Below, one piece after another: positions 4,113 to 22,811 of a DNA stretch of 24,000 bases. The stretch is from an uncultured Clostridia bacterium (GTDB lineage: Bacteria > Bacillota > Clostridia > DSM-8532): positions 1,566,644-1,590,643 of the forward strand of contig OW818693.1 in NCBI GenBank assembly GCA_942493335.1, read 5' to 3'. The notes under the pieces are model-generated. The model worked only from the letters and a program-made list of their open reading frames with translations. It made no database searches and had not been told where the DNA came from. A program made the translations under genes and the position numbers. Every line of letters begins with the position of its first letter. Within the stretch, counting starts at the first letter, position 1.

Positions 4113-4123
4113 ATGGTTAGCAA

Positions 4124-7800: not shown

Positions 7801-7917
7801 AAACTCGCGTTCAAGGTCTGCCTCGCTTTGATAGGACGTTTGACGAGTCTGGGATGGCTCATATTCCGTTACTACTGTTTTCTCGTCAGTCGAGGCGACC
7901 ACATGATAAACTTTCAT
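4900..7917 (-). CDS. hsdR: Type I restriction enzyme R subunit (helicase/endonuclease), 1005 aa
   Basis: SF2 helicase motifs: STGSGKTLTS (Walker A), FDECHRS (DEAH-type motif II), FTGTP. Size and position immediately after hsdS fit. AAGGAG RBS. Confidence 0.95.
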   Translation of the reverse strand: MKVYHVVASTDEKTVVTEYEPSQTRQTSYQSEADLEREFIKQLVSQGYEYATIHNSQEMITNLRKQLELLNDFTFSDDEWTRFYKECISNSTEGIVEKTRKIQVDHIQLLKRDDGTSKNIMLIDKKMVHNNQLQVLNQYQESEGAHNTRYDVTILVNGLPLVHFELKRRGIALREAFNQINRYQRDSFWASNGLYEYVQLFVISNGTSTKYYSNTTRDSHVRELATASKEKSKKTSNSYEFTSFWADEKNRRIDDLVDFTKTFFSRHTLLNILTRYCVFTVENLLLVLRPYQIAATEKIINKINISHNYKKAGTIDAGGYCSHSTGSGKTLTSYKTAQLAAGLPFIDKVLFVVDRKDLDYQTMKEYDKFEKGAANGNTSTKVLQKQLANPDAHIIITTIQKMDMFIRRNKGHAVFNKQVVIIFDECHRSQFGDMHKQITDAFKNYYLFGFTGTPIYAKNAVRKDSVIKTTESLFGAKLHSYTIIDAINDQNVLPFKVDYTNTIKEKAGIKDKQVHAIDREHAMESPVRVREVSKYILEHFDQKTRRNSAYSLKGKRVMGFNSIFAVSSIKMAKMYYAEFKKQLAESGQQLTIATIFSFAQNEEDPNDSLPDEEFDTDALDKTSRDFLEAAIRDYNTIFNTNFCTDADRFENYYKDLSMRIKSREVDMVIVVNIFLTGFDATTLNTLWVDKNLKHHGLLQAFSRTNRILNSVKTYGNIICFRNLQDETDEALSLFGDKDAGGIILLKPYEAYYKGFDEKGVYHEGYETLVNTLLGRFPLTSTLIGEQNQKDFVKLFGSILKMRNILATFDEFIGNELLTERDLQDYQSRYIDIYQNFVRDRGEGKENINDDIEFEIELIRQIEINIDYILALIEKYHKSNCKDKEALAAIDRAIDSSIQLRSKKDLIESFIATVNSVGDVRGSWKQHVAEKKEKELVEIITAENLKPEETRRYIDNAMKDGVLKVTGMEFDAIMPPVSRFGGKRKSIKDKIASILERFFEKFFGIG

Positions 7918-7929
7918 TCGTACTCCTTC

Positions 7930-9180
7930 TCACATCGCCTTTTCAAAGGAAAGCAGTTTGTCTCTGTAGTATTCGTACTGCTGCTGCCGTGCTTCTATTT
8001 CGGCGGGCAGACCCGTCGTCAAATCATTGCAGAGCAAATCAAATTGGTCGAGGATGCGGACTATTTCTTCCTGAATGGGGAGAGGGGGAACGAGAACAGG
8101 TACGCGAGCTATAGAATTACTCATTAACTTTGGGTTGCCCATCCCGGGACTAACATAGTCCTTAACAATTGACTGGAGCCAATAGAACAGAAAACGGGTA
8201 CATAATTCTGTAGGGATAGACACGCTTAAGAGGCCACATACATTTGTAATGCTGAATTTCTCGTTCGAATGGAAGAATACAGACCCTGCATTTGCGCCAT
8301 CAGTCGTCCATGTGATAGATTCAAAGTCATAATCATAATTGTCAATGTATCCGAATATTCCGTTGTTCAATGTCTGCGATGAGTACACTGGATAAACTCC
8401 AGCATTAGCTCGAAGATAGTCTTTTGACATAACGCGCCCACGAGTTATCATACACATCTCGTCAAGATTTTTATACTCCACCCCATCCGGGCATAACTCA
8501 TCAATCAGTTTCCGAATCGTCCCAGTCTTCCTCTGCAGACCTTCTTCCGAAAAATCAAGCATCTTATTTTGATAATACTCATACTGCTGCTTGCGAGCCG
8601 TCCGCTCCGCGTTTAGCTCCGCCTTCAATTCCGTTGTCAACTCCGTGAATGTGTCGAGGATGCGGACAATTTCTTCCTGAATGGAGAGAGGGGGGATGGG
8701 GATTTCAATTGCCTTTATTGCTGGTACACTTGAATGAACGACTTTGCTCTTCACTTTACCAGCACTCTTATGTTTTTGTGCATCTGCTGTCGACAGGACA
8801 TACGAAAGATACTTAGGGTTCTGATTATGCTTCAGTACAACCATGTCGCCGCCAGCCAAACACTTTTCATGGCCAACGTACGCTGTTGACTTAGCGATAT
8901 CCGCCACGTTTTCTCCCGTTATAGCAAATAAAATGTCACCGTGCTCGAAATATTTCGGATTTTGAATGGCGGCTTCTTCAGTGTGTGAAACACACTCATC
9001 AAACCATATCCCATATGTTGTATAAATTTCCCCATACCGGACACAGGAAATCCCATATGGGACTACCTGGTCTCGCGTGATTCCCGAACCCCGATAAACA
9101 TCGGTAGCGATTTCTCCAATAGCTTTTATCTCTACCCCATCGGGGCACAGCTCCGCAATCAGTTCTTCAATCCTGCTCAT
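7930..9180 (-). CDS. hsdS: Type I restriction enzyme specificity subunit, two TRDs
   Basis: Two-fold internal architecture. Each half begins (I/L)xELCPDGVE(I/Y)K and ends with the conserved spacer (L/P)(S/P)IQEEIVRILD...QQYEYY. ATGA overlap with the hsdM stop (9177-9180). Confidence 0.95.
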   Translation of the reverse strand: MSRIEELIAELCPDGVEIKAIGEIATDVYRGSGITRDQVVPYGISCVRYGEIYTTYGIWFDECVSHTEEAAIQNPKYFEHGDILFAITGENVADIAKSTAYVGHEKCLAGGDMVVLKHNQNPKYLSYVLSTADAQKHKSAGKVKSKVVHSSVPAIKAIEIPIPPLSIQEEIVRILDTFTELTTELKAELNAERTARKQQYEYYQNKMLDFSEEGLQRKTGTIRKLIDELCPDGVEYKNLDEMCMITRGRVMSKDYLRANAGVYPVYSSQTLNNGIFGYIDNYDYDFESITWTTDGANAGSVFFHSNEKFSITNVCGLLSVSIPTELCTRFLFYWLQSIVKDYVSPGMGNPKLMSNSIARVPVLVPPLPIQEEIVRILDQFDLLCNDLTTGLPAEIEARQQQYEYYRDKLLSFEKAM

Positions 9181-10745
9181 GCTTCCACCTCGATTTCATC
9201 GATAATTGCCGCAATTTTGTCGCGAAGCTGCTGAGCCCTGGTGACGATTGTTTCAAGCCGTTCGTTCAATTCAGTAATATCAACCACTTCTCGCAAGTCT
9301 TTTTGCTCAACGTATGACGAGACGGATAGATTATAGCCATTCTCGGCAATCTGTTTGTTAGGGACAACCTTTACCATGTGTTCGACATCCTGACGGCCCC
9401 ACACAGCCTTCAGTATGTTTGCAATGTTATCATCTGTCAGCTTGTTGCCGTTGGTTACCTTAACGCATTCTTTAGAAGCGTCAACAAATACCGTCGTACT
9501 GGCCTTTTTGTTCTTCTTTAGGACCAAGATATTTGTGGAGATAGAGGTTCCATAAAACAAGGACCCTGGGAGCTGGATGTTTGCTTCGACATAATTGTTG
9601 TCAATCAGATACTGCCGAATCTTTTGCTCAGCTCCGCCCCGATACATAATTCCAGGAAAACAAACAATGGCCGCGACGCCGTTTTCCGACAGCCATGACA
9701 ACGAATGAAGAATGAACGCAAAATCAGCCTTTGATTTCGGGGCAAGCACTCCGGCGGGGGCAAATCTTGGGTCGTTGATAAGTGTTGGGCTCCCATCCCC
9801 AATCCAACGGACGCTGTAAGGTGGATTCGATACGATAGCTTCAAAGGGTTCTTCGTCCCAGTGGTGTGGCTCAGTCAGGGTGTCTCCATGCTTAATGTCA
9901 AACTTGTCAGGGCCGACATCATGCAGGAACATGTTAATTTTGCACAACTGGCTGGTGACCGACGAAATCTCCTGCCCGTAGAAACCCATTCTGACATTTT
10001 CCTTGCCAAGAATCTTGGCAAACTTCAGCAGAAGTGAGCCACTCCCGCATGCGGGGTCATAAACCTTGTTGACTTCCGTTCTTCCATATAGTGCCAAATG
10101 AGCCAGGAGCATCGATGCTTCAGGCGGCGTGAAATATTCTCCGCCCGATTTCCCTGCATTGGACGCATACATCCCCATAAGGTATTCGTATGCATCTCCA
10201 AACGCGTCAATGGAGCTGCCATGGCCGTATCCAAAATCCATTTCGCCGATGCCATTCATCAACTTGACGAGTGCAGAATTCCTACTCGCAACGGTTGCTC
10301 CGAGTTTGTTGCTGTTGACATCAAGTTCGTTAAACAATCCCTTAAAGTCTTCCTCACTCTCATAACCGCGAGCGGATGCCTCAATGGCGTCGAGAGCCTT
10401 TCCCAGCTTTTCATTGATGTTGGGGTCAGATGAAGCATTCTTACGGACATTGCAAAAGAGCTGGCTGGGAAGAATGAAGAACCCCTTTACTTGGACGAAT
10501 TCTTCGCGAGCCTGCTCTGCATCTTCATCGGAAATTTCAGAATACTTGAACCCAATATTCCCAGCAGCTTCTTCGCCCTTGTTGATATAGTTTTCTTGGT
10601 TCTCGGAAATATACCGATAGAACAACATCCCAAGAACATATTGCTTGAAGTCCCATCCATCCACGCTACCACGTAAATCGTTCGCAATTGCCCAAATCCC
10701 CTTGTACAGTTCGCTTCTTTCAACCTCACGTTTGTTTTCTGCCAT
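9177..10745 (-). CDS. hsdM: Type I restriction enzyme M subunit (N6-adenine DNA methyltransferase)
   Basis: SAM-binding motif I VYDPACGSGSLLL and catalytic motif IV IVSNPPYS. HsdM-type N-terminal helical domain. AAGGAG RBS. Confidence 0.95.
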   Translation of the reverse strand: MAENKREVERSELYKGIWAIANDLRGSVDGWDFKQYVLGMLFYRYISENQENYINKGEEAAGNIGFKYSEISDEDAEQAREEFVQVKGFFILPSQLFCNVRKNASSDPNINEKLGKALDAIEASARGYESEEDFKGLFNELDVNSNKLGATVASRNSALVKLMNGIGEMDFGYGHGSSIDAFGDAYEYLMGMYASNAGKSGGEYFTPPEASMLLAHLALYGRTEVNKVYDPACGSGSLLLKFAKILGKENVRMGFYGQEISSVTSQLCKINMFLHDVGPDKFDIKHGDTLTEPHHWDEEPFEAIVSNPPYSVRWIGDGSPTLINDPRFAPAGVLAPKSKADFAFILHSLSWLSENGVAAIVCFPGIMYRGGAEQKIRQYLIDNNYVEANIQLPGSLFYGTSISTNILVLKKNKKASTTVFVDASKECVKVTNGNKLTDDNIANILKAVWGRQDVEHMVKVVPNKQIAENGYNLSVSSYVEQKDLREVVDITELNERLETIVTRAQQLRDKIAAIIDEIEVEA

Positions 10746-10799
10746 TATGATTCTCCTTTGTTTATAGTTATCGGATTCGTGTACCCGTTTACATTCACA

Positions 10800-10827
10800 A
10801 TTCTATCCGTATTCTTCCATTGGTCAA
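10800..10827 (-). promoter_or_regulatory. Predicted sigma-70-type promoter of the R-M operon
   Basis: On the minus strand: TTGACC (10827-10822), 16 nt, TAGAAT (10805-10800), about 55 nt upstream of the hsdM ATG. A second TTGACA lies at 10839-10834. Confidence 0.45.
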
Positions 10828-10859
10828 CACAGATGTCAACCTACTTCTCCTCTTTTCCG

Positions 10860-10994
10860 TTATTGGCCCCCATAACACGGAAAGGTCGAACACGCATTAT
10901 CAACGAACTTATGGACGGAAGAATCTTCATCAAGAATATCACACCTGCCGGACAATGTATGGGCTTTCATGAAGTGATTATGAAGCTTGTTCAT
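10860..10994 (-). CDS. Small ORF, 44 aa, Cys-containing (MNKLHNHFMKAHTLSGRCDILDEDSSVHKFVDNACSTFPCYGGQ)
   Basis: Below the ORF-track cutoff. ATG 6 nt after GAGGA. An extended -10-like TGCTAATAT (minus strand, 11057-11049) sits just after the upstream terminator. No recognisable family. Confidence 0.25.
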   Translation of the reverse strand: MNKLHNHFMKAHTLSGRCDILDEDSSVHKFVDNACSTFPCYGGQ

Positions 10995-11057
10995 TCCGAA
11001 TCCTCACTTAACATTCGTCTCGAAGGACAACCAATGTTTCAGGCACTGATATTAGCA

Positions 11058-11098
11058 AACAGAAAGCTGCTCTACATCAAATGGAGCAGCCTTCTGTT
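11058..11098 (-). terminator. Strong hairpin terminator downstream of the decayed gene
   Basis: aacagaaagctgctc (11058-11072) and gagcagccttctgtt (11084-11098) form a 15-bp stem with one mismatch and an 11-nt loop. Lies about 20 nt after the TAA at 11119-11117 on the minus strand. Confidence 0.6.
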
Positions 11099-11116
11099 AA
11101 TAAATCGACAACATCA

Positions 11117-12092
11117 TTACTCTTCAACCACGGGGAACACACGATTGAGTTCCGCCTGTGTTTCCGCGATATCTTTCCCAATGCCCGGCATCATCTCAAA
11201 CGACACCTTGAACAATGTATAGTCTTCTTCAACGACGTCATTGACGATAAGTTGAACTGAATTGAAAGTTTTTTGCAAATCGCTTGCCACATATTGTGGA
11301 GCGTCTGAGCTGATGCTGGTGGAGTAATCGACTGCAATTGGCGTTGATTGTTTTCAAGCGACTTTCATAGAGCATTGCTCCCTCAAGAATTGAAGCATCG
11401 GTATATGAAGTGGGATTTTCGATAACATCCATGTTATAGTCGCCATAATCACCGACGATGCTCTGATATCTGTTCGTGAAACACCCCATATCCTCAATAT
11501 ACGATGTTTTTTCCTCGGTGAACTGTAACCTCTTATCGCCCTCCAAGGCAACTTGAGATGTCGCACTTGGGGTGACTTCTTCTGAAGGAGAAGGCCATGC
11601 CTCTGATGGTGAAGGTAATACCGCTTAAGGAACTGAGGCAACTGGTGACACGGCTGTTTGTGACTCGATGGTCTTGGCATCACTGTCGCTTGATTGTTTG
11701 AAAAGACCCGTTTGAACCGGAATGAAGATGAAAATAAAACGACAATTGCAGTAACTATTAGCTTCACTTTGCGCTTTATACACTCATTTATCCAAAGTAA
11801 CAACAAGCCGAGCGGCCAGAACAGCACCAAGAAATGATTGCAATCCATGGTTTCTGATAGAACGGTTCTCTTCTGGGGGAGGCCGGTGGATATGATGCTG
11901 CATTATCATATACCTTGAGGTATCTGCATAGCAGTTGGTTGGACCATTCTGCGCCCACGCATACCATCCATGGCCTTGCCCATCTGAAGACATATTGTTA
12001 TTTGGTCCAGTATTCATGGGCCCATTCTGTTGGTCGTGCCTCGGTGTTCCATTGTCGCCTTCAATGTTCCACCCACTGTGATATGAATTCAT
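11117..12092 (-). pseudogene. Decayed gene (in-frame stops plus frameshift) for a membrane-anchored or secreted protein
   Basis: The start at 12092 has GAGG 8 nt upstream. That frame hits TGA at 11783-11781 and TAA at 11627-11625, yet stays protein-like on both sides (KQSSDSDAKTIESQTAVSPVASVP*AVLPSPSEAWPSPSEEVTPSATSQ...). After about 11350 the protein-like reading moves to another frame (KQSTPIAVDYSTSISSDAPQYVASDLQKTFNSVQLIVNDVVEEDYTLFKVSFEMMPGIGKDIAETQAELNRVFPVVEE*), which ends just before the terminator. TM-like text (HFLVLFWPLGLLLLWI, KLIVTAIVVLF) sits in a second frame. Confidence 0.45.
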
Positions 12093-12292
12093 ATTGCATA
12101 CCTCGTATGCAATATGCTAATCAGATATCGTAGAACAGTAACTCATAGCAGAGCGGACCAAGATGAACGTATTCGCTTGCCCATTATTGACATCGCTCTA
12201 CGATATGAATGCAACCAATAGAGCCCTATTCCATAAAGGAAGTGTGACCGCTATGCACTCCACCAGTAATACGTCAAATTTGAAGCAAACGC

Positions 12293-12958
12293 CTAATTTG
12301 TAACATTGCTAATATTTGTATCGGTAATTTCCCTATTTAGTTTGCTTTTTATCAAGTATACATACTGCGCAAACAGTTCTCTTGCATATGTTCTTGCGTA
12401 CTTGTCCATAGAATAAATCGATAAAACAATTGCAACAACTAGTGACAAACACACGTTAATTATGACACCTTTTAACACCACGACTACAATCAATATAAGA
12501 ATCAGAGAACTAGCAATCCCACGAGTAAGCCCATAACTCCCATTGAAGAAGTCTACTCTATCATGCAATGAAGCCGCTTTGATTTCGGCATAAATTTCTC
12601 TTGTGAATCCTATCCACGTTCTTTTGTTGACGAAGGGATTCTTCCCCTCCGACATAAAATGACTGTATATTGATTCTCTCCAATGCTCTGAGTAGGTATT
12701 GTTGCTCTCTATCATAATCCAGTCCGTTGGCCATCCTTTGCGGAACTTCCACCACATTTTCTCAAGAATATTCCCAACTGCTTGAACCAGATACCCGCAC
12801 GCATAGCTTATCACAAGCATAATACTAATGGCAGAAAACTGATTTTGGTTACTAAGCAACAGAGTGTTTACTTCCTGTATTACAAGGGATAGTCCAAATA
12901 ATGCCACCGCACCTGGGACAAATATACCCGCAAATTCGTAATAATCGAAGTTCCTCAT
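12293..12958 (-). CDS. Integral membrane protein, about 4 TM, unknown function (221 aa)
   Basis: I prefer ATG 12958 (GAGGTG 6 nt upstream) to the GTG at 12967. Two N-terminal TM segments (FAGIFVPGAVALFGLSLVI, ISIMLVISYACGYLVQAVG), a soluble core of about 90 aa, and two C-terminal TM segments (SSLILILIVVVVL, INVCLSLVVAIVLSIY). Confidence 0.6.
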   Translation of the reverse strand: MRNFDYYEFAGIFVPGAVALFGLSLVIQEVNTLLLSNQNQFSAISIMLVISYACGYLVQAVGNILEKMWWKFRKGWPTDWIMIESNNTYSEHWRESIYSHFMSEGKNPFVNKRTWIGFTREIYAEIKAASLHDRVDFFNGSYGLTRGIASSLILILIVVVVLKGVIINVCLSLVVAIVLSIYSMDKYARTYARELFAQYVYLIKSKLNREITDTNISNVTN

Positions 12959-13118
12959 AACAATCACCTCGTAATAAAGAAAATGCTTCTATACCCCATA
13001 CAGCGAAAGGTAAACTTTTCTTAACGGATATTACTTCGTTTCATATCAACTTCTCTCTGACTATATGAAGTCATTGGCGGCGAAACAACTTAAAATGATT
13101 AACTACCAGCATATATAA

Positions 13119-13447: not shown

Positions 13448-14530
13448 ATGAGCCAAAGAATCACAATCTACCCGCTTGGAAACGCCGAAACCATTTTATT
13501 AGAACTCTCAAACAATAAGAGAATTCTCATAGACTATGCTGCAATGCGCACTGAAGAAGAGGGCGATAAGCGTTATGACATCACCACAACGCTAGTAAAA
13601 TTTAGTTCTTTCGACGTTGTTATGTTTAGTCATGCCCATGAAGACCACGTTAAGGGTGCGAAAGACTTTTTTGAGTTTGACCATGCCGAAAAATACCAGG
13701 GTAATGGGCGTGTGAAAATCAAGGAACTTTGGGTTTCATCTGCGTTTGTGCTTGATTCTAGTGTCAGCGAAGATGCTCGTGTTATTCGCCAAGAAGCACG
13801 CCACCGCATAAAGAAGGGCTATGGGATAAAAGTGTTCGCTGAGCCCGATAAACTCGACCAATGGCTTATTGATAATGACCTGTCAACTGACGATAGTGAA
13901 AACTCCATAATCCACGCAGGAACATTACTAAAAAATAAAGACCACTGCCTTGGAGATGAGCTTGATGTATTTGTCCATGCACCGTTCTCAGAGGACGCCA
14001 ATGAGAGTGAAGATAGAAATGACCCATCAATTGTTTTGCAGCTTAGGTTAGCAAATTTTTCGCGGACTACAACCATCTTCGTTACAGGCGATGCTCCACA
14101 TGAAATTCTTGATAAAATAGTCGAGCGTTCTGAAAAGGCCGGTAATGATAGCTATCTATACTGGGATTTATATGACATACCACACCATTGCAGTCATACC
14201 GGGCTATCAGACGAACGTGGAGAGAAAGTAACAGATACTTCTGAAAATATCAAACGCCTATTATCCAATTATTCTAGAAAGAACGCCGTCATGATAGCTT
14301 CATGTCGGGCGTTTTGTGATGTAGGTGACGACGACCCTCTACCGCCTCATTTTCAAGCAAAAGATGCTTATATAAAATATAGTGGCGAGAAGGAGTTCAT
14401 CGCGACAATGGAATACCCTAATAAAGTCAATCCTCAACCGCTGGTTTACGAAATCGATATGTTTGGAATAACCAAGAAAGTAGTCACGGCAAGCCCCATT
14501 ATAACTTCGCCAGCACCGAGGGCAGGATAA
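13448..14530 (+). CDS. Metallo-beta-lactamase-fold hydrolase (360 aa) with a Pro/Ser-rich C-terminal tail ending in Gly
   Basis: N-terminal ITIYPLGNAETILLEL..RILIDYA strand pattern. H62-A-H-E-D-H67 (HxHxDH zinc motif). No signal peptide. C-terminus ...KKVVTASPIITSPAPRAG*. GAGGGGGG RBS 8 nt upstream. The stop overlaps the next start (TAATG). Confidence 0.85.
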   Translation: MSQRITIYPLGNAETILLELSNNKRILIDYAAMRTEEEGDKRYDITTTLVKFSSFDVVMFSHAHEDHVKGAKDFFEFDHAEKYQGNGRVKIKELWVSSAFVLDSSVSEDARVIRQEARHRIKKGYGIKVFAEPDKLDQWLIDNDLSTDDSENSIIHAGTLLKNKDHCLGDELDVFVHAPFSEDANESEDRNDPSIVLQLRLANFSRTTTIFVTGDAPHEILDKIVERSEKAGNDSYLYWDLYDIPHHCSHTGLSDERGEKVTDTSENIKRLLSNYSRKNAVMIASCRAFCDVGDDDPLPPHFQAKDAYIKYSGEKEFIATMEYPNKVNPQPLVYEIDMFGITKKVVTASPIITSPAPRAG

Positions 14531-16791
14531 TGGAAACTGATATCACCACTCCAATGTGCGAGATAACAAGGCAAATCCTTGTTGTTTTGTGTAGCGGTGG
14601 CCCATATCAGGCTACCCTGCAATGCATTGAGAATGTGAGACATGATAATACCTTAACAGACATGCTCAAAATCGAATACAATATCGCAGGATTGTGTCAG
14701 TATCCAAAATATGAAATCCGCCGAGTCGAGCCAATTACTATTTGGGTACAAGATGGACAGTTGCCGATAGTCGAAGCAAGAGAAGATTTCCCGATAGTGC
14801 CTCATCTTGTTGTCAATCGTGATGGCATGAAGACGCTCTGTTATACCGATTTCTCATATTCTGAGATAAAGCACAGACTGAACGGACAATTTATTGTGGA
14901 GTGCATCAACGAGTGGTTTGTAAGAACCGCTCGTGATGAACTTCACCGAGATGACCAGCCTCTTGAACCTTTCTTTTTCGGGGTCCAAGACATGATTGTC
15001 GTAAAGAAGCAGTTTTTTCATAATTATTGTGCAAAATTCAAAGAAATTCAACAAAACAATCGTCTGACATTACAGCAAGTCCCCGACGGTGTCAACGGGA
15101 CAGGGGTATACCTTTACGTTGTTATTAGGTTGAATATCCCACCTAGTAAAGATAACATTATCCATCATCCTCCGAAGTCATTAGGAGATTTATTTGCTCT
15201 TTTTTCATCGAAGCACATCGAACAGCAGCTTATGACCGAATTGTGGGAAATTCTCAAAATAAGGCTTAATAAGAAAAATTTTCAATCTACATTCGTCAAT
15301 ATGTCTTTTCTGTTTTGTTTACCCTGCATCATCTTTTTGCATATCCCACAAAGAAGAAAAAAAACAAGTATTATCGAAACATCAGATAATCGTGTGTTTA
15401 TAACCAACGGTCACAGATTCGGCGATATTCTCAATGATTTTGGTATCCATCGACAGATAATTGTTGGCGAAAAAAAAAGTCAAGAATATAAGTTAACCAG
15501 TACCGGCAAAAATTATCACGGCGAAAACATCAGCATCAGTCAACTCAATCTTCACTTTGAAACAACGCCTCCACTTGCCAGAATATATAGCGGAATCAAT
15601 GAAGGCTATCAACATAAATATTTCGTACTCATCGGTGCAGGAGCCTTAGGCTCTCAGGTGTATGTTAATTGTTTACGCTCAGGTTTTGGGAAATGGGCAA
15701 TTATTGATTTCGATGTTTTTTTGCCCCACAACCTTACTCGGCATGTTCTTTCACAATCTTCAGTTGGACAACCGAAGGCAACAGAGCTAGTGCAATATGC
15801 TAATTCTGTCATTGAGAATCCTGAAGTATGCGCTTATGTAGCTGACGTTCTTGACCATCATAGCGCCGACATTCTTATGACCTTAGCAACAGCCGATGTG
15901 ATAGTAGACGTTTCCACATCGGTCGCGGTGGAACGAATGCTTGCCATAGACACGAAAACAAAAGCACGATGTATTTCGCTCTTCTTAAATCCACGAGGCG
16001 ATTGTCTTGTTATGCTTTGTGAAGACTCGGAGCGAACCATTACACTCGACCAATTGGAGATGCAGTTGAACGCAATACTGATTAACGAGACTGATTTGGA
16101 GAATTTCTATTGTTTGCCAACAACTATAGCATACGCTACATCTTGTCGCGACATAACTACTACTATTCCGCAAGAAAACATTGCATTAACTGGCGCCGTC
16201 GCAAGCAAAGAGTTGAAATTAGCTCAAGAAAACATGTCATCAAATATCGTTGTCTGGAAAATAAGCAACGATGGAATTGCAGCACAAAGATATGCTGGCG
16301 AACGATGGCATGAAATATCTTGTGGTGATTGGCGAGTGTTGATGCGCTACTCCTTGCTGCATTCTCTCCAAGAAAAGAGAATCGAACGTCAACCGAATGA
16401 AACCGGCGGTGTTCTTATTGGTAATTATGACTTTTCACGTAAGATAATTTATGTCGTCGACATGATTTTTTCACCAAGTGACAGTATTGAGGTCCCTTCC
16501 TCATATATCCGAGGCTGCAAAAACTTACCTGAGCAGATAAATCAAATATCAAAAAGAACATTTAACGGTCTTTTCTATATCGGGGAATGGCATAGCCACC
16601 CCAGCCAGAGCACTGCGATGAGCTGTGCTGATGAAAAGCTTCTCCGCACAATTAGCGATGTTTGTAAAGCCAACTGTCTACTCGGTGCTATGATTATTTG
16701 CGGGAGTAATAGCAATTTATCTTTTTATCTTCGTGATGATACTATGGTTTTTTCTGAGACGTTCATATTCGACAATACTGGACAACGATAA
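14530..16791 (+). CDS. E2(UBC)-like / E1 (ThiF-MoeB) / JAB triple-domain protein, 753 aa
   Basis: E2-like: DFPIVPHLVVNRDGMKTLCYTD, a His-x11-Cys pattern like HPN...G.iCl of UBC folds, with candidate Cys104 (nt 14839-14841). E1: YFVLIGAGALGSQVYVNCLRSGFGKWAIIDFDVFLPHNLTRH (GxGxxG plus D.D...NL.R). Candidate E1 Cys539 (ATSCRD). JAB: E624 (NETGGVLIG) and H688-S-H690-x7-S698-x2-D701 (EWHSHPSQSTAMSCAD), the canonical JAMM spacing. Confidence 0.9.
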   Translation: METDITTPMCEITRQILVVLCSGGPYQATLQCIENVRHDNTLTDMLKIEYNIAGLCQYPKYEIRRVEPITIWVQDGQLPIVEAREDFPIVPHLVVNRDGMKTLCYTDFSYSEIKHRLNGQFIVECINEWFVRTARDELHRDDQPLEPFFFGVQDMIVVKKQFFHNYCAKFKEIQQNNRLTLQQVPDGVNGTGVYLYVVIRLNIPPSKDNIIHHPPKSLGDLFALFSSKHIEQQLMTELWEILKIRLNKKNFQSTFVNMSFLFCLPCIIFLHIPQRRKKTSIIETSDNRVFITNGHRFGDILNDFGIHRQIIVGEKKSQEYKLTSTGKNYHGENISISQLNLHFETTPPLARIYSGINEGYQHKYFVLIGAGALGSQVYVNCLRSGFGKWAIIDFDVFLPHNLTRHVLSQSSVGQPKATELVQYANSVIENPEVCAYVADVLDHHSADILMTLATADVIVDVSTSVAVERMLAIDTKTKARCISLFLNPRGDCLVMLCEDSERTITLDQLEMQLNAILINETDLENFYCLPTTIAYATSCRDITTTIPQENIALTGAVASKELKLAQENMSSNIVVWKISNDGIAAQRYAGERWHEISCGDWRVLMRYSLLHSLQEKRIERQPNETGGVLIGNYDFSRKIIYVVDMIFSPSDSIEVPSSYIRGCKNLPEQINQISKRTFNGLFYIGEWHSHPSQSTAMSCADEKLLRTISDVCKANCLLGAMIICGSNSNLSFYLRDDTMVFSETFIFDNTGQR

Positions 16792-17361: not shown

Positions 17362-17669
17362 ACACCAAGCATAGCGGAGTATAGTCAAATCTCGCACGAA
17401 CGGCACACTCCCTTGTTCAACCTTCCAAAACCACCATGCTCCTTCATGTCTCCCTCATCGCACATTTCTCCACATTTTTCGCATTCATACCACCTGACCC
17501 AAAACGAATCAAACTGCATGTCACTAGATGACGCATCAAAGTGTTGGCGCATCTCAGCCTTTGCCTGTTCATGCTCAAAATCATCGTTATGATGTCCTAT
17601 GCCACCACATCGCGTCATTTGAGGCTCTCGCTGAGCATATTGTCGACGAATAGCTTGAAATGTCTCTGT
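17362..17669. repeat. Direct repeat copy A (3' two-thirds of the zinc-ribbon gene plus about 20 nt of downstream flank)
   Basis: Alignable by eye with 22962-23268 in the same orientation. Roughly three quarters of positions are identical, for example gagtatagtcaaatctc, caaccttccaaaa, caccatgctccttcatgtct, gctgagcatattgtcgacgaat. Confidence 0.7.
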
Positions 17670-17867
17670 AGCCTTCTTGGAATCGAGCTTCTCCTGTTCA
17701 TCATCTTCAGCACTCAAGATTGCGTCATTGTCAAGCCGGTCTATTACCGTCGATGCGAGTCGTTCTTGCTCACGGGCTTCACGTTCTTTTGACTCGTGAA
17801 GCCTCTGCTCAAGTTCTTTATTCAGCCGGTCTCTTTCCCGCTTATCTCGTTCTGCTTTTTCTACCAA
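17385..17867 (-). CDS. Coiled-coil plus C-terminal zinc-ribbon protein (paralog A), 160 aa
   Basis: The charged N-terminus (ERDKRERDRLNKELEQRLHESKEREAREQERL) is predicted coiled-coil. C-terminus WYECEKCGEMCDEGDMKEHGGFGRLNKGVCRSCEI (CxxC...CxxC). TTG start. The reading frame stays open upstream without a start, and a 55-codon ORF with a good SD (ATG 18025, ends 17861) is in another frame, so the 5' end is possibly frameshifted. Confidence 0.6.
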   Translation of the reverse strand: MVEKAERDKRERDRLNKELEQRLHESKEREAREQERLASTVIDRLDNDAILSAEDDEQEKLDSKKATETFQAIRRQYAQREPQMTRCGGIGHHNDDFEHEQAKAEMRQHFDASSSDMQFDSFWVRWYECEKCGEMCDEGDMKEHGGFGRLNKGVCRSCEI

Positions 17868-18069: not shown

Positions 18070-18258
18070 GTTACAAGTTTGAGAGCAAGAGCGTTTTGTG
18101 TATGGCTTTCTGTACAGTTAGTTTATCAGTTGTAATTCTCACTTTGTGTGTTTTGTACGGTAACTTTTTCTTTGTGCTTTGATGTATAGTAACTGCAAAC
18201 ATCTTGAAAGAAACCATTTGTAACCGTGGCAGAGAAGGTGTAGACTTTTGGTGGTTAC
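18070..18258 (+). promoter_or_regulatory. Array of five GTAAC/GTTAC-containing sites upstream of the ATP-grasp operon (candidate operators)
   Basis: GTTAC at 18070 and 18254. GTAAC at 18160, 18189 and 18220. When oriented alike they read T(T/A)GTAAC(C/G). About 0.5 occurrences would be expected by chance in about 240 nt. TTTGT(G/A) is also reiterated about 7 times. Confidence 0.3.
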
Positions 18259-18299
18259 TAATATTGGCAATGAAATCAGTTGTGTTGCAGGAGGTTTGT

Positions 18300-18908
18300 A
18301 TGAATCAAAAGAATCCGCTGTTCTCGTATCGAACTGCTTGTCCTGATAACATTCCGGTGACAGAACAAGAGGTAGCCAGACACTACGACAGCAGAACCGG
18401 TCTTTGGTATGAGGCGGGTGGTGTTCCCGTTATTGAGAAATTCGTGAACTCACGTGTGAGAGATAAGAGGGCTGAAACCCACACAACAGACTCCCGTGAG
18501 GGTATCGACAGAGGCGAAACATCCTCGCCTCCGCCTCGTTATCTGAACGATACTCGAAGAACACAAGCTGGACCAGACGAAACCCTTATAACCGAAACCA
18601 GAGAAAGCATTGACCGAAGTGAAGGTTCTGTTCACTACGAAGACTTTGTGGCTCTAAAAGGACCTGATGAAACGCTGATTACAAAGACAAGGGAAGGTAT
18701 CGACACAAGTGAATCCTCTTCCTTTGTCCCATTTGTTGCAGAAGAATACAAAATCAAGGCATCCGGCTCTGCTGAAACGCTTATAACGCGTTCGAGAGAA
18801 GGTATTGACACAACCGAAAGAAGCAACGAAATACATGACTATATGTTTCAAACCATCCAAACATTCACGCGTGAATCGACCGACAGAAACGAGGAACAAT
18901 CGGAATGA
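18300..18908 (+). CDS. Multi-core graspetide-type precursor protein (202 aa) with five repeats of a T/S- and E/D-rich motif
   Basis: I prefer ATG 18300 (AGGAGG 7 nt upstream) to the TTG at 18204. Repeats: AETHTTDSREGIDRGE, DETLITETRESIDRSE, DETLITKTREGIDTSE, AETLITRSREGIDTTE, QTIQTFTRESTDRNEE. ATGA overlap with the ATP-grasp gene start. Confidence 0.75.
   Translation: MNQKNPLFSYRTACPDNIPVTEQEVARHYDSRTGLWYEAGGVPVIEKFVNSRVRDKRAETHTTDSREGIDRGETSSPPPRYLNDTRRTQAGPDETLITETRESIDRSEGSVHYEDFVALKGPDETLITKTREGIDTSESSSFVPFVAEEYKIKASGSAETLITRSREGIDTTERSNEIHDYMFQTIQTFTRESTDRNEEQSE
18471..18896 (+). repeat. In-frame coding repeats (5 units; 18471-18518, 18576-18623, 18666-18713, 18771-18818, 18849-18896)
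   Basis: Consensus (D/A)ET(L/H)(I/T)Tx(T/S)RE(G/S)IDx(S/T/G)E. The three central units share GAAAC(C/G)CT(T/G)AT(A/T)AC at the DNA level. Spacing is 30-35 codons. Confidence 0.8.
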
Positions 18909-19849
18909 TAACGTGTCCGAAGGTTCTCTTCGTAACAAATCGGGAGGATTTCGCCATCGACTTCCTCCTATATCGGTTCAAAGACAAAGGGATACCCTAT
19001 CTACGTATCAACTCTGAGGATATCACGGAATGTGATATAACCTGGGAATACGGTAAAGAAGTAACCTTTTCATATAGCGGAGACTCTTATGATTTAGAGG
19101 CTGTCAAATCGGTATACTTTCGTCGCGCTCCTTCTATCTTTCCACAAGGGGTTGACCCGACGGACACTCCTTTTCTTAGGGGTGAAAGACGTGATTTCTT
19201 CGAAGGGTTGTATATGACCCTTGAAGCTAGATGGGTGAATCCTCTTTTCAGCACCTACATAGCCGAAAAGAAACTATATCAGCTCAACGTAGCACGGCAA
19301 GTTGGCTTTACCATCCCAAAATCGATAGTCACAAATAGACCACAAGACATCCTCAGCTTTCTTTCGAACGGCCCCAGTATCATGAAACCTATCTCGCATG
19401 GTCTTCAGGTGAAGGTTGGCGAAGCTTACTCAATCTATACATCGGTTATCCAAGCAGCCGATTTCAAGGACCTTGAGAACACCTTTGAAGCACCCGTTCT
19501 GGTACAAACAAGAATTCCAAACACTTGTGATATAAGGGCTACAGTCGTTGGCAACAAGGTATTCGCTGTCGAGATACACCAAGAAGGCGAACCAAATGTT
19601 GATTGGAGAGTGCTCGAAGCAACCAAGCGTTATGTTCTTCACGAATTACCGCCTGATATCATATCCATGATGCTTAACCTGCATAAATCATTAGGGCTTG
19701 TCTACTCAGCCTTCGATTTCATCCTAACACCAGACGGAGAGTATGTGTTCCTTGAAACGAATCCTGCTGGAGAATGGGTTTGGATAGAAAGAGAGACAGG
19801 TCTGCCTATAGCAGAAGCCTTGTGCTCGGAGTTGATTGATGAAAAATAA
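18905..19849 (+). CDS. ATP-grasp peptide macrocyclase (MdnC/MvdD-like, RiPP maturase family), 314 aa
   Basis: VLFVTNREDFAIDFLLYRFKDKGIPYLRINSED (N-terminal precursor-binding domain pattern). DIRATVVGNKVFAVEI...VDWR. GLVYSAFDFILTPDGEYVFLETNPAGEWVWIERETGLPIAEALCSELI closely matches the FLE.NP.GqW.W.E..TG.pI signature of microviridin-type ligases. Confidence 0.9.
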   Translation: MITCPKVLFVTNREDFAIDFLLYRFKDKGIPYLRINSEDITECDITWEYGKEVTFSYSGDSYDLEAVKSVYFRRAPSIFPQGVDPTDTPFLRGERRDFFEGLYMTLEARWVNPLFSTYIAEKKLYQLNVARQVGFTIPKSIVTNRPQDILSFLSNGPSIMKPISHGLQVKVGEAYSIYTSVIQAADFKDLENTFEAPVLVQTRIPNTCDIRATVVGNKVFAVEIHQEGEPNVDWRVLEATKRYVLHELPPDIISMMLNLHKSLGLVYSAFDFILTPDGEYVFLETNPAGEWVWIERETGLPIAEALCSELIDEK

Positions 19850-20861
19850 GCAAAAAACTGTAGATTTGGGTTCCACACAAACTGAGGTGCAACCAAAAAT
19901 CGCTATGGCTGAGAAAAAGCCAATGGTAGCAGCAACAGAACAGAAAGACCCGGTTTGGCAAGACGAGTATCTATCGCCGAACATAGAAAGTAAACCACTA
20001 ACGGTCAAACTAATTTGGAAAAGTATAAAAGACTTTTTCATATTTCTTCTTCATGCAATATCCCCACATGCATATCCAACGCCACCAAAACTAGCTCTCC
20101 CCGATATAACATCAGATGATGAGCATTTAGCCTTCGATATGTGTAAGTCGCTGTATGAAGCATCACATTCAAGAATCGATAATCTTGAAGATAAATCGAT
20201 GAAGTTGCTCCCTTATATCACAGCCCTCTTTGCCTTCTATTCATTTGCTTATCTAAACATAGCGAATATCCCCACAAAGGTATCTTTGTTGACAGCAATG
20301 CTTTTTTTGCTTCTATCTATCATCATTTCCTTTCGTTGTGTTAGCGTAAAAGGGCGTAGAGCCATATTCATCCCTACCATATACGATATGGACGAAAAAC
20401 CACCAAAAGAGCTTTTTAAGAGAAACACAATATCAAAGGGTTACCTGAAATCTGCAATCATAAACCAGTCCGTGGCTGATAACACCGCTGATATCCTACG
20501 CGCTGCAAGAAGCACCTTAACACTCGCTCTGATTATTGGTTTAGTCGGTTGTATGGTTGGTGTTATAGGATTGTTTGGTGCAGAAAAAACTAGTCAGGAC
20601 GTAAAAATCCTTCAACAAAATGAGACAACCATATTGGTGAAAAGCGTTCAAGATGAGGCAATAGCCATACGAGGGTTAACCGAAAGAATAACAAGCAAGT
20701 ATGAGATACAACAGGACAGCGAGAATGGCAAGCTCGAGCGAAAGAACCAGGAGTTGTCAGATGCCCTAGATACCACGACCAAGAAGGTCGATAAACTAGA
20801 AAGTGAACTCAAAAACCTCTTGGAAAAACTCAACACAGAACCTGTTCCAGCAACAAAGTAA
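19839..20861 (+). CDS. Multi-TM membrane protein with C-terminal coiled coil (340 aa)
   Basis: ATG 19839 overlaps the ATP-grasp 3' end by 11 nt, with GGAG about 9 nt upstream. TM segments LLPYITALFAFYSFAYLNI, VSLLTAMLFLLLSIIISF, LTLALIIGLVGCMVGVIGLFG. The segment before TM1 (SHSRIDNLEDKSMKLL) is reminiscent of DUF5706/SLATT-type TM effector N-termini (weak). C-terminal heptad-like ELSDALDTTTKKVDKLESELKNLLEKL. Confidence 0.75.
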   Translation: MKNKQKTVDLGSTQTEVQPKIAMAEKKPMVAATEQKDPVWQDEYLSPNIESKPLTVKLIWKSIKDFFIFLLHAISPHAYPTPPKLALPDITSDDEHLAFDMCKSLYEASHSRIDNLEDKSMKLLPYITALFAFYSFAYLNIANIPTKVSLLTAMLFLLLSIIISFRCVSVKGRRAIFIPTIYDMDEKPPKELFKRNTISKGYLKSAIINQSVADNTADILRAARSTLTLALIIGLVGCMVGVIGLFGAEKTSQDVKILQQNETTILVKSVQDEAIAIRGLTERITSKYEIQQDSENGKLERKNQELSDALDTTTKKVDKLESELKNLLEKLNTEPVPATK

Positions 20862-21398: not shown

Positions 21399-22367
21399 AT
21401 GAGAAAAGCACTTTGCGTCGGAATTGACAATTATGAAACAATCAACGACCTGCATGGATGTGTAAATGATGCGAACGGAGTAAAGGCTGTGCTTGACCGG
21501 AACGGTGATAGCACATTGAATTTTCAGACCCGCTTGATGTGTTCGACAAGTGAGAACTCGTATATAAGAAGAGGCGATTTGAAGGACGCAATTGAAGAGT
21601 TATTCAGAAGTGAATCTGAGATAGCGATTCTGTATTATGCAGGGCATGGCTCATATGATGAAAATGGCGGCTATTTATGCACTAGCGAAGTGAGTCGTTC
21701 TGATGACGGTTTATCTCTTGACGATATTATGGGAATAGTGTCACGGTCAAAAGCTCAAAACAAAGTGATTATACTCGATAGTTGCCATAGTGGGCTTGTG
21801 GGAACATCAAATTTGATGCCAAATTATTCTGTATTGCATAACGGAACGACTATTCTGGCCGCATGTGATGAAAAGCAATACGCATCGGAGGCAATGGGGC
21901 ATGGTGTATTTACGACTTTGCTTATAGAAGCGCTTTATGGCGGCGCAATGAATCTTTTAGGCGAGGTGTCACCTGGTAGCATATACTCATACATTGACCG
22001 CTCACTTGGTGGCTGGGAGCAACGTCCAGTGTTTAAGGCAAACATCAAATCCTTTGTGTCCCTAAGAAAAAATTCTCCTCCCATTCCAATAGAAGAATTA
22101 CGGCGCATAAAGGAATTTTTTCCCTCCCCATATGAGGAGTTCTCACTTGACCCCACATACGAGCCGGACAAACACGAGGCTGATATGCAGGATGTAAACA
22201 AAGAACACGAAGCCGTATTCGCAATACTGCAAAAGTATGTTAAGCTGAATTTGGTTGTGCCTGAAGGCGCAGAGCATATGTACTATGCCGCATTAAACCA
22301 CAAGTCTTGCAAATTAACTTCACAAGGTCAGCATTATTGGAATCTTGTTACAAAAGAAACAATATGA
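21399..22367 (+). CDS. Caspase-like (peptidase C14) protease with an uncharacterised C-terminal domain, 322 aa
   Basis: KALCVGIDNYETINDLHGCVNDANGV..., ILYYAGHGS (catalytic His) and VIILDSCHSG (catalytic Cys) form the caspase/metacaspase His-Cys dyad. Residues from about 200 to 322 have no motif I recognise. AGGAGGAGG RBS. Confidence 0.9.
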   Translation: MRKALCVGIDNYETINDLHGCVNDANGVKAVLDRNGDSTLNFQTRLMCSTSENSYIRRGDLKDAIEELFRSESEIAILYYAGHGSYDENGGYLCTSEVSRSDDGLSLDDIMGIVSRSKAQNKVIILDSCHSGLVGTSNLMPNYSVLHNGTTILAACDEKQYASEAMGHGVFTTLLIEALYGGAMNLLGEVSPGSIYSYIDRSLGGWEQRPVFKANIKSFVSLRKNSPPIPIEELRRIKEFFPSPYEEFSLDPTYEPDKHEADMQDVNKEHEAVFAILQKYVKLNLVVPEGAEHMYYAALNHKSCKLTSQGQHYWNLVTKETI

Positions 22368-22424: not shown

Positions 22425-22811
22425 ATGGTGAAGAAGAACGTATTCATTAGTCATCGCTGGGATTATGAAGAAGACTACGAAAAAATTAGTGCTGTGCTAG
22501 ACCGGACAAAATACGACGTGTCAAATCGCTCGGTTGAGAGTTCGGACCCTCTAGTTGGCACAAAAAAAGAAGTTACAGTCGCTATAAAGGCGAAGATTGA
22601 CAGTGCAAGTGTTGTGCTTGCACCCGCTCGTCCAGCAGCGGTCACATCTGGAAGCATGGGGCGTAAGGAAATTGATTATGCCGTAAGCAAAAAAAAGAAA
22701 ATCATAGCTGTCGATACTGGGACCACGCAATCCGTAGCTAGCTATTGGAAAGAAAACGACATCCCTGTAGTCACATGCCGTAAAGACAGTGTCGAGAATG
22801 CAATAGGATAG
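22425..22811 (+). CDS. TIR-like domain protein (DUF1863 / ThsB-like), 128 aa
   Basis: KNVFISHRWDYEEDYEKI start typical of TIR-like/DUF1863. IDSASVVLAP...SGSMGRKEIDYAVSKKKKIIAV matches the i..s..vivl...S.w...Ei..a...gkpiigv pattern. Lies 57 nt downstream of the caspase-like gene. Weak SD. Confidence 0.6.
   Translation: MVKKNVFISHRWDYEEDYEKISAVLDRTKYDVSNRSVESSDPLVGTKKEVTVAIKAKIDSASVVLAPARPAAVTSGSMGRKEIDYAVSKKKKIIAVDTGTTQSVASYWKENDIPVVTCRKDSVENAIG

What the first reader, a model, noticed from the sequence alone, without database searches (positions are those of the whole stretch)
13448..16791. MBL-fold hydrolase plus E2-like/E1/JAB triple fusion: a ubiquitin-less conjugation module resembling CBASS Cap2/Cap3 logic with a different cargo
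Seen directly: two co-directional genes overlap by 1 nt. Gene 1 has the HxHxDH metallo-beta-lactamase motif. Gene 2 carries, in order, a UBC-like His...Cys core (VPHLVVNRDGMKTLCY), a ThiF/E1 Rossmann and NL.R motif, and a canonical JAMM motif (E624, HxH-x7-S-x2-D).

Established: in type II CBASS an E2-E1 fusion (Cap2) conjugates the CD-NTase C-terminus to targets and a JAB protease (Cap3) reverses it. Bil/Bub systems use E1/E2/JAB with a ubiquitin-like protein. Here all three enzymatic activities are in one polypeptide. The only partner is an MBL hydrolase, and no CD-NTase or beta-grasp gene is nearby. I recall that comparative-genomics surveys of prokaryotic E1/E2/JAB operons noted an association with MBL proteins. 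I know of no experimental characterisation.

Inference: the MBL protein, a possible nuclease or hydrolase effector, is regulated by conjugation and deconjugation. That would make this a candidate anti-phage system of a new type.
Basis: partly seen in the sequence, partly recalled or inferred. Interest (0 to 1): 0.9.

Follow-up and report, generated by a model that had tools for sequence, protein, structure and literature searches.

The report
Known 6A-MBL anti-phage defence operon
These two genes are a textbook copy of the already named and phage-tested "6A-MBL" bacterial defence system, in which a nuclease-like enzyme appears to be attached to targets through its own tail by a ubiquitin-style E2/E1/protease fusion protein; it is real, but it is not a new type of system.

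Summary
Two co-directional genes overlap by 1 nt: a 360-aa MBL-fold protein (HAHEDH at residues 62-67) and a 753-aa E2/E1/JAB fusion.

The claim of novelty is not correct. Both proteins score far above the curated cut-offs of NCBIfam's "anti-phage 6A-MBL system" equivalog models. The operon type was defined in 2006 (Iyer et al., Table 1 row 6a). Citing papers credit van den Berg et al. 2024 with showing anti-phage activity in Pseudomonas aeruginosa.

My analysis supports the inferred mechanism:
- The MBL ends in a near-invariant PRAG-COOH, and orthologues often carry 1-10 extra residues after it.
- All 33 loci with a tail-bearing MBL and downstream sequence have the fusion gene. All 7 tail-less variants lack it and carry an AGS_C sensor domain instead.
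- C104 and C539 are the only invariant cysteines in the fusion.
- The fusion model matches Cap2 (7TO3). The MBL model matches the ComEC DNA-nuclease domain (9IC4).

A Csx27/PDC-M48A-like four-TM protein (12293..12967, minus strand) flanks the pair here, and a TM protein of this architecture does so in 18 of 28 loci.

The window is a defence island. Novelty: already known. Interest: low to moderate.

The parts
13448..14530 (+). 6A-MBL system MBL-fold protein (360 aa), a ComEC-like predicted metal-dependent nuclease. Invariant family residues include H62, H64, D66, H67, H177, D215, H246, H247.
   Evidence: NCBIfam NF058524 324.9 bits against a cut-off of 220. Invariant residues in a 37-sequence alignment. 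AlphaFold model pLDDT 88.6. Foldseek top hit 9IC4, the ComEC beta-lactamase-like nuclease domain, E 1.9e-15 and TM 0.70 on the target.
14507..14527 (+). C-terminal tail of the MBL (residues 354-360, TSPAPRAG-COOH). Predicted site of E1 adenylation and conjugation. In this copy the protein ends exactly at the reactive Gly360.
   Evidence: A [PS]RAG motif is present in 112 of 120 homologues. It is terminal in 40 and followed by 1-10 variable residues in 72. R358/A359/G360 are invariant in A1. The tail has low pLDDT, consistent with flexibility.
14530..16791 (+). 6A-MBL 'cap2_3' protein (753 aa): E2-like, linker, E1-like and JAB domains in one polypeptide.
   Evidence: NCBIfam NF058523 518.1 bits against a cut-off of 320. 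Pfam Prok-E2_A + ThiF + Prok-JAB. Model pLDDT 83. Foldseek top hit Cap2 7TO3_A, E 6e-21 over 654 columns.
14698..15009 (+). E2-like (Prok-E2_A) domain, residues ~57-160, with catalytic pair H92/C104.
   Evidence: Pfam PF14457 at residues 61-158, E 1.3e-14. H92 and C104 are invariant in 30 orthologues with 31-62% identity.
15592..16239 (+). E1-like adenylation domain, residues ~355-570. Nucleotide-binding residues G369/G371/G374, D393, N401, R404, K416, D460. Catalytic C539 sits on a mobile loop.
   Evidence: Pfam ThiF 6.9e-16. PDB sequence hit to Cap2, 2.4e-12. The Cap2 E1 domain superposes at TM 0.81-0.86. Residues are invariant. The loop 533-539 has low pLDDT.
16327..16734 (+). JAB/JAMM metallopeptidase domain, residues ~600-735 (E624, H688, H690, S698, D701). 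Cap3-equivalent isopeptidase and tail-trimming protease.
   Evidence: Pfam Prok-JAB 2.5e-9. PADLOC CBASS JAB models down to 7.7e-27. NCBIfam Cap3 1.9e-6. E624/H688/H690/D701 are invariant and S698 is at least 90% conserved.
12293..12967 (-). Csx27/PDC-M48A-like membrane protein (224 aa; two TM helices, a ~90-aa loop, two TM helices), transcribed divergently 481 bp upstream. Probable facultative third component.
   Evidence: PADLOC Csx27 1.2e-5. An iterative profile finds this family beside the pair in 13 of 28 loci. Of 21 family members, 11 hit Csx27 and up to 7 hit PDC-M48A, best E 4.7e-63. Homologues elsewhere sit beside ComEC-like MBLs.

Best explanation
This is a member of the 6A-MBL anti-phage defence system.

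Shown here:
- The two proteins are orthologues of the curated 6A-MBL pair.
- The MBL has a ComEC-nuclease-like fold with a complete metal site and a flexible tail ending in an invariant Arg-Ala-Gly.
- The fusion is Cap2-like (E2-linker-E1) with a Cap3-like JAB domain appended, and all catalytic residues are conserved.
- The tail and the fusion are gained and lost together.

Inferred, by analogy with type II CBASS:
- The E1 domain adenylates Gly360 of the MBL with ATP.
- The MBL passes as a thioester to C539 and then to C104 of the E2 domain.
- It is then ligated to an amine on a target that is not yet known.
- The JAB domain reverses this. In orthologues with 1-10 extra residues after the Gly, it first trims them; this copy needs no trimming.
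- Conjugation primes, concentrates or localises a weakly DNA-binding nuclease so that it degrades DNA during infection.
- A Csx27-like membrane protein encoded next door may anchor or partner the nuclease.
For: Identity:
- NCBIfam equivalog hits far above cut-off.
- Operon type 6a of Iyer et al. 2006.
- The system is named and credited with anti-phage activity.

The MBL is the conjugated substrate:
- A PRAG motif is at or within 10 residues of the C-terminus in 112 of 120 homologues.
- All 33 loci with a tail-bearing MBL and downstream sequence have the fusion.
- All 7 tail-less MBLs lack the fusion and carry an AGS_C domain instead.
- CBASS precedent: C-terminal Gly/Ala conservation occurs only when Cap2 and Cap3 are present, and Cap3 cleaves at the cGAS C-terminus.
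- No beta-grasp gene or any other third gene is conserved across all loci.

Enzymology:
- C104 and C539 are the only invariant cysteines, and the JAMM and ATP-site residues are invariant.
- Cap2 is the top structural hit.

Nuclease:
- ComEC's beta-lactamase-like domain is the best structural match by seven orders of magnitude.
- That domain is an experimentally shown DNA endo/exonuclease whose activity rises about 7-fold when it is tethered to a DNA-binding domain.
- PADLOC similarity to the MBL components of Lamassu, DRT and Avs1 systems.

Context: the pair lies in a defence island with type I R-M, an AbiEi-like gene, a caspase and a TIR protein.
Against: - I could not read the primary experimental paper, so the phage phenotype rests on citing papers and on NCBI's model names.
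- No biochemical evidence for MBL conjugation was found in the accessible literature.
- The conjugation target is unknown.
- Nuclease activity is inferred from fold similarity only (15% identity to ComEC; TM 0.53 on the query).
- One preprint calls the MBL a 'signaling enzyme', which would suit a non-nuclease role.
- The TM protein is absent from 10 of 28 loci. In this window it is on the opposite strand, so its link to the pair is statistical.
Confidence: 0.75

Rival explanations
1. The MBL is not a nuclease. It makes or destroys a small-molecule signal, for example as a cyclic-nucleotide phosphodiesterase or similar phosphoesterase, and conjugation tunes that signalling activity as it does for cGAS in CBASS.
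For: The Corbett-lab preprint groups the MBL with 'signaling enzymes'. Tail-less paralogues are fused to AGS_C, a domain described as a nucleotide sensor and otherwise attached to nucleotide cyclases/SMODS. MBL-fold phosphodiesterases such as yeast PDE1 appear among weaker fold hits, E ~1e-5.
Against: The ComEC nuclease domain is the top structural hit by a wide margin, and the ComEC-type PHH(G/C)S motif is present. The conserved core is two genes with no separate signal-activated effector. The related defence MBLs in Lamassu, DRT and Avs1 occupy effector positions.
Confidence: 0.15
2. The fusion protein conjugates something other than the MBL, such as a ubiquitin-like protein encoded elsewhere or a phage protein. 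The MBL would then be an independent effector or a downstream target.
For: No direct conjugation data are available to me. Bil and Bub systems do use a separate Ubl.
Against: The MBL tail ends in an invariant Gly, with variable propeptides as in Ubl precursors. Tail and fusion co-occur 33/33 and are co-absent 7/7. No small conserved ORF accompanies the pair. The closest enzyme, Cap2, acts on its operon partner's C-terminus.
Confidence: 0.07
3. The pair is not a defence system in this organism. It might be a housekeeping or DNA-uptake function (ComEC-like nuclease plus membrane channel), or an E1-type sulphur-transfer pathway.
For: The MBL resembles the competence nuclease. The neighbouring TM protein belongs to a family that a 2019 paper linked, by its title, to natural competence. 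The E1 fold is shared with ThiF/MoeB.
Against: The pair is embedded between type I R-M and caspase/TIR genes. Its distribution across phyla is patchy, which suggests horizontal transfer. E2 and JAB domains are not part of sulphur-transfer pathways. Anti-phage activity is reported for the family.
Confidence: 0.03

Closest known systems
6A-MBL anti-phage system (Iyer, Burroughs & Aravind 2006, operon type 6a; van den Berg et al. 2024; NCBIfam NF058523/NF058524)
   Same: Same two-gene operon, same domain order, same catalytic residues, and scores well above both equivalog cut-offs.
   Different: Nothing essential. This copy comes from a Clostridia-type genome (closest relative 82% identical, in Ruminiclostridium cellobioparum), not from Pseudomonas. 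Its MBL ends exactly at the reactive Gly. It has a Csx27-like TM gene beside it.
Type II CBASS Cap2/Cap3 (Ledvina et al. 2023, PDB 7TO3; Jenson et al. 2023)
   Same: An E2-E1 enzyme that activates the C-terminal Gly/Ala of its operon partner, with a JAB isopeptidase that reverses it. Cap2 is the best structural match.
   Different: Here the JAB domain is fused to the E2-E1 protein. The substrate is an MBL hydrolase rather than a CD-NTase. There is no cyclic-nucleotide effector gene.
PADLOC candidate system PDC-M48 and the Csx27 membrane-protein family
   Same: A four-TM protein paired with a ComEC-like MBL. The 6A MBL weakly matches PDC-M48B, and the flanking TM family matches PDC-M48A and Csx27. 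Genuine PDC-M48B genes lie beside 10 of 28 6A-MBL loci.
   Different: The window has the TM gene but no PDC-M48B. PDC-M48 has no E2/E1/JAB component. The window's TM protein reaches only the Csx27 model (1.1e-5).
Bil and Bub bacterial ubiquitination-like systems
   Same: E1, E2 and JAB chemistry used for phage defence.
   Different: Those systems have a separate beta-grasp Ubl and separate enzymes. None is present here.
ComEC beta-lactamase-like nuclease domain (PDB 9IC4)
   Same: Closest fold. The metal-binding motifs are equivalent (HxHxDH against HxDxDH, plus PHH(G/C)S).
   Different: Only 15% identity. The 6A MBL is soluble and stand-alone, is ~95 residues longer, and carries the conjugation tail.

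Membership tests
6A-MBL anti-phage system | MBL-fold protein matching the curated equivalog model | tested here: met
   NF058524.1: 324.9 bits, cut-off 220, residues 8-338 against model positions 2-344 of 346.
6A-MBL anti-phage system | [quoted passage not shown] | tested here: met
   NF058523.1: 518.1 bits, cut-off 320. Pfam order is Prok-E2_A, ThiF, Prok-JAB.
6A-MBL anti-phage system | The two genes adjacent and co-directional | tested here: met
   1-nt overlap in the window. Same arrangement in 33 of 33 informative loci.
6A-MBL anti-phage system | Intact catalytic residues (MBL metal site; E2 Cys/His; E1 Cys and ATP site; JAMM) | tested here: met
   All are present in the window protein and invariant in the family.
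6A-MBL anti-phage system | Protects cells against phage | not testable with these tools
   Reported for the P. aeruginosa system according to citing papers. The primary paper is not held.
Type II CBASS | CD-NTase (cGAS-like) gene in the operon | tested here: not met
   No CD-NTase hit among the window ORFs scanned, and none conserved in the flanks of 28 loci.
Type II CBASS | Cap2-type E2-E1 enzyme and Cap3-type JAB | tested here: met
   PADLOC CBASS E1-E2 and JAB models, 7e-31 and 8e-27. Foldseek 7TO3, E 6e-21. Here the two are fused.
Type II CBASS | Effector activated by a cyclic oligonucleotide | tested here: not met
   No such effector gene is conserved next to the pair.
Bil / Bub systems | Separate ubiquitin-like beta-grasp protein | tested here: not met
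   No conserved small ORF beside the pair and no beta-grasp family hit among the window ORFs scanned. ORFs under 110 aa were not all scanned.
Csx27 / PDC-M48A membrane-protein family (for ORF 12293..12967) | About 200-aa protein with four TM helices matching the family profile | tested here: inconclusive
   The window protein hits Csx27 at 1.1e-5 only. Topology is 2+2 TM. A profile links it to 13 flanking proteins, several of which hit PDC-M48A strongly.

The most novel reading that the evidence does not exclude
The Cap2_3 fusion covalently tethers a ComEC-like nuclease, through Gly360, to the Csx27-like membrane protein or to proteins at the site of phage DNA entry. That would assemble a split, ComEC-like 'channel plus nuclease' gate that destroys incoming DNA. 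The natural swap between a conjugation tail and an AGS_C sensor domain would then show that the same nuclease can be switched on either by covalent tethering or by a nucleotide ligand. 6A-MBL would stand to PDC-M48 as type II CBASS stands to type I.
Probability: 0.12. Interest if true: 0.65.

Novelty: already known. Interest (0 to 1): 0.25.

Why it matters
For a genome scan, this locus should be filed as a recognised defence system and not as a discovery. NCBI's own annotation models would label both genes.

The system is still mechanistically thin in the literature I could read. The conjugation target, the MBL's substrate and the trigger are all unknown.

Three features seen here give direct experimental handles on how ubiquitin-like conjugation can control an effector enzyme without a ubiquitin:
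- the invariant PRAG tail with cleavable extensions;
- its replacement by an AGS_C domain exactly where the E2/E1/JAB fusion is missing;
- the frequent Csx27/PDC-M48A membrane partner.

Tried and rejected
- The primary 6A-MBL paper and the Makarova 2019 Csx27 paper could not be read by DOI, PMID or PMC id. Statements about them rest on citing papers and titles.
- Rfam found nothing in the window, including the ORF-poor stretch 10745-12293.
- Promoter-like and terminator-like sites occur at chance frequency, so no operon boundary is claimed from them.
- No relative of the MBL was found on viral contigs.
- The two flanking TM families (A and B) are not detectably homologous (hhalign probability 0.5%), so I do not merge them. 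I report only that they share topology and position.
- I rejected a CBASS assignment because there is no CD-NTase and no effector. I rejected Bil/Bub because there is no Ubl.
- tblastn found no PDC-M48B remnant in the window.
Full report
**Observation**

The window encodes two co-directional ORFs, 13448..14530 (360 aa) and 14530..16791 (753 aa). The TAA stop of the first shares its last A with the ATG of the second, and both have purine-rich ribosome-binding stretches.

- Gene 1: HAHEDH at 62-67.
- Gene 2: VPHLVVNRDGMKTLCY at 90-105 (H92, C104).
- Gene 2: GAGALG at 369-374 and NLTR at 401-404.
- Gene 2: C539, E624, and HSHPSQSTAMSCAD at 688-701.

Pfam places Prok-E2_A (residues 61-158, 1.3e-14), ThiF (364-471, 6.9e-16) and Prok-JAB (614-726, 2.5e-9) in that order. 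The MBL is only weakly seen by generic Pfam models.

**What it is**

NCBIfam holds two curated equivalog models, and both are matched far above cut-off:
- "anti-phage 6A-MBL system MBL-fold protein" (NF058524): 324.9 bits against a cut-off of 220.
- "anti-phage 6A-MBL system cap2_3 protein" (NF058523): 518.1 bits against a cut-off of 320.

The name goes back to Iyer, Burroughs & Aravind 2006.

Later literature:
- A 2026 review credits van den Berg et al. [quoted passage not shown] I could not obtain the primary paper. PADLOC-DB 2023 has no dedicated model and returns only the generic CBASS E1-E2/JAB models and the MBL models of DRT, Lamassu and Avs1. This may be why the pair looks unclassified at first sight.

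**Is the MBL itself the conjugated substrate?**

The MBL family is large: 871 proteins at E <= 1e-5.
- Of the best 120, 112 carry a [PS]RAG motif at the extreme C-terminus. It ends the protein in 40 of them, as it does here. It is followed by one residue in 51 and by 2-10 variable residues in 21.
- Of the 8 without the motif, one (P0022) ends in VRAG, three are AGS_C fusions and four appear truncated.
- R358, A359 and G360 are invariant in a 37-sequence alignment.
- In the AlphaFold model (pLDDT 88.6, pTM 0.89) the last ~15 residues are low-confidence, as expected for a flexible tail.

A conserved terminal glycine with an optional, non-conserved extension is the signature of ubiquitin-like precursors. 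It is also seen in CD-NTases of type II CBASS. There, C-terminal Gly/Ala conservation is found only in operons with Cap2 and Cap3, and Cap3 cleaves at the cGAS C-terminus (PMC10097602).

**Synteny and a natural control**

A scan of one genome per species returned 43 loci, mostly Clostridia. The rest came from Poribacteria, Thermodesulfobacteriota, Bacteroidota, Ignavibacteria, Anaerolineae, Brocadiaceae and a CPR lineage.
- In all 33 loci where the MBL has its tail and the contig continues, the E2/E1/JAB gene follows immediately.
- Seven loci have no such gene. In exactly these, the MBL match stops at residue ~342 or earlier. The ~493-aa protein instead carries a C-terminal AGS_C domain (Pfam 1.5e-43; same architecture confirmed in all seven).
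- One locus (L004) is a deletion remnant, and two are cut by contig ends.

Tail and conjugation machinery are thus gained and lost together. No other gene, and in particular no small beta-grasp ORF or CD-NTase, is conserved across the loci.

**The fusion protein**

- In 30 orthologues with 31-62% identity, only two cysteines are invariant, C104 and C539. Also invariant are H92, the nucleotide-binding residues (G369, G371, G374, D393, D395, N401, R404, K416, D460) and the JAMM residues E624, H688, H690 and D701. S698 is at least 90% conserved. A second set of 30 database homologues gave the same result.
- Of the 120 best database homologues, 119 have all three Pfam domains.
- By sequence, the E1 region matches solved Cap2 (7TO3, 2.4e-12).
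- The AlphaFold model has pLDDT 83, and the C539 loop is disordered as in other E1 enzymes.
- Foldseek's top hit for the model is full-length Cap2 (7TO3_A, E 6e-21, 654 aligned columns). The isolated Cap2 E1 domain superposes at TM 0.81-0.86.

**What the MBL probably does**

[quoted passage not shown] The next hits are at about 1e-8.
- A profile of the family also picks 9IC4 as its only, faint, PDB sequence hit. That alignment pairs the HxHxDH motif with ComEC's HxDxDH and PHHCS with PHHGS.
- The ComEC domain is an experimentally shown Mn2+-dependent DNA endonuclease and 5' exonuclease. It binds DNA very weakly alone and is about 7-fold faster when fused to any DNA-binding domain (PMC12455585).

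I therefore infer that the 6A MBL is a DNA nuclease effector, and that covalent attachment through its tail could raise its local concentration on the substrate. This step is an inference and has not been shown. The preprint's wording ("signaling enzymes") and the AGS_C-fused paralogues keep a small-molecule role alive as a rival.

**A missed partner**

The gene upstream on the other strand (12293..12967, 224 aa) has two TM helices, a ~90-aa loop and two more TM helices. It hits PADLOC's Csx27 model at 1.2e-5.
- An iterative profile started from it converges on 14 proteins beside the 6A-MBL pair in 13 of 28 loci.
- A second, not detectably homologous TM family with the same topology lies directly upstream of the MBL in five more loci, and in six of the seven AGS_C loci, the exception being L040.
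- Altogether 18 of 28 loci have such a protein within 3 kb, and 11 of them have it within 71 nt of the pair.
- Of 21 family-A members, 11 hit Csx27 (best 4.8e-12) and up to 7 hit PADLOC's candidate-system component PDC-M48A (best 4.7e-63).
- A second ComEC-like MBL that recurs in 10 loci is PDC-M48B (down to 2.6e-165).
- Starting from the window's TM protein, its database homologues sit beside PDC-M48B-type MBLs, and in one case beside separate E2-CBASS and ThiF genes.

The title of Makarova et al. [quoted passage not shown] I could not read that paper. In the window the TM gene is present without a PDC-M48B, so its likely MBL partner is the 6A MBL. This is association evidence only.

**Context**

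The pair lies in a defence island:
- an AbiEi-like gene at 3468..4112;
- a type I R-M operon, with hsdR 4900..7917, hsdS 7930..9180 and hsdM 9177..10745;
- a caspase of NCBIfam's "EACC1-associated type" at 21399..22367;
- a TIR/ThsB-like protein at 22425..22811.

No relative of the MBL was found on viral contigs. The closest genome copy, in Ruminiclostridium cellobioparum, is 82% (MBL) and 62% (fusion) identical.

**Verdict**

The finding is real and correctly dissected, but it is a rediscovery. It is a member of the named, curated and phage-tested 6A-MBL system, first delineated in 2006. The conjugation idea is already in print.

What my analysis adds is sequence-level support for that idea: the PRAG tail, its co-loss with the fusion, and the invariant catalytic residues. 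It also adds a ComEC-nuclease assignment for the MBL and evidence for a facultative Csx27/PDC-M48A-type membrane partner and an AGS_C-regulated sister architecture.

Novelty: already known. Interest about 0.25, because the molecular mechanism still seems open.

Noticed in passing
window 18204..18908 (+) and 18905..19849 (+): The ORF at 18204..18908 contains five repeats of a T-x-(T/S)-R-E-(G/S)-(I/T)-D-x-x-E motif, at residues 94, 130, 160, 195 and 220. It is followed, with a 4-nt overlap, by an ATP-grasp enzyme that resembles graspetide maturases (NCBIfam GRASP_SAV_5884 1e-63 and MvdC 1.7e-54, both below their equivalog cut-offs; Pfam ATPgraspMvdD). This looks like a multi-core graspetide (omega-ester/amide RiPP) precursor plus its ligase, inside a defence island. 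The true start of the precursor may be the ATG at 18270 or 18300.
   Followed up: partly
L019, L020, L021, L023, L039, L040, L042 (e.g. L021:6001-7482): A sister architecture. The same MBL (50% identical over residues 1-342) lacks the PRAG tail and is fused to an AGS_C sensor domain, and the locus has no E2/E1/JAB gene. In six of the seven loci a 2+2-TM protein lies directly upstream (not detected in L040). In four of them (L019, L021, L040, L042) another ComEC-like MBL lies upstream. I found no description of this variant.
   Followed up: partly
L001:4089-5549, L003:1036-2576, L034:9894-10994 and others: PADLOC's candidate defence system PDC-M48 (four-TM protein plus ComEC-like MBL) is physically merged with, or adjacent to, the 6A-MBL pair in about a third of loci. 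That suggests a functional link and not just island co-residence.
   Followed up: partly
window 10745..12293: About 1.5 kb between hsdM and the TM gene has no convincing ORF, only overlapping 100-160-aa ORFs of odd composition. It has no Rfam match, even at a permissive threshold. It may be a decayed gene or an uncharacterised non-coding element.
   Followed up: partly
window 21399..22367 (+) and 22425..22811 (+): A caspase-domain protein (Peptidase_C14 1e-17; NCBIfam 'caspase, EACC1-associated type' 2.4e-27, below cut-off) is followed by a small TIR/ThsB-like protein (PADLOC ThsB 7e-8). The preceding ORF 19836..20861 (341 aa) has no confident family. This may be another conflict system.
   Followed up: no
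window 17385..17867 (-): A 160-aa ORF with a highly charged, coiled-coil-like N-terminal half and a Cys-rich C-terminal end (CxxC...CxxC). It has no hit in Pfam, PADLOC or NCBIfam, and it lies immediately downstream of the 6A-MBL pair on the opposite strand.
   Followed up: no
window 3468..4846 (-): An AbiEi-like protein (PADLOC 1.7e-37) lies downstream of an unannotatable 240-aa ORF (4124..4846). No recognisable AbiEii nucleotidyltransferase partner was detected.
   Followed up: no
L004:6001-7342: A decayed 6A-MBL locus. The MBL match ends at residue 290 and runs into a fragment matching only residues 557-748 of the fusion, consistent with an internal deletion.
   Followed up: no
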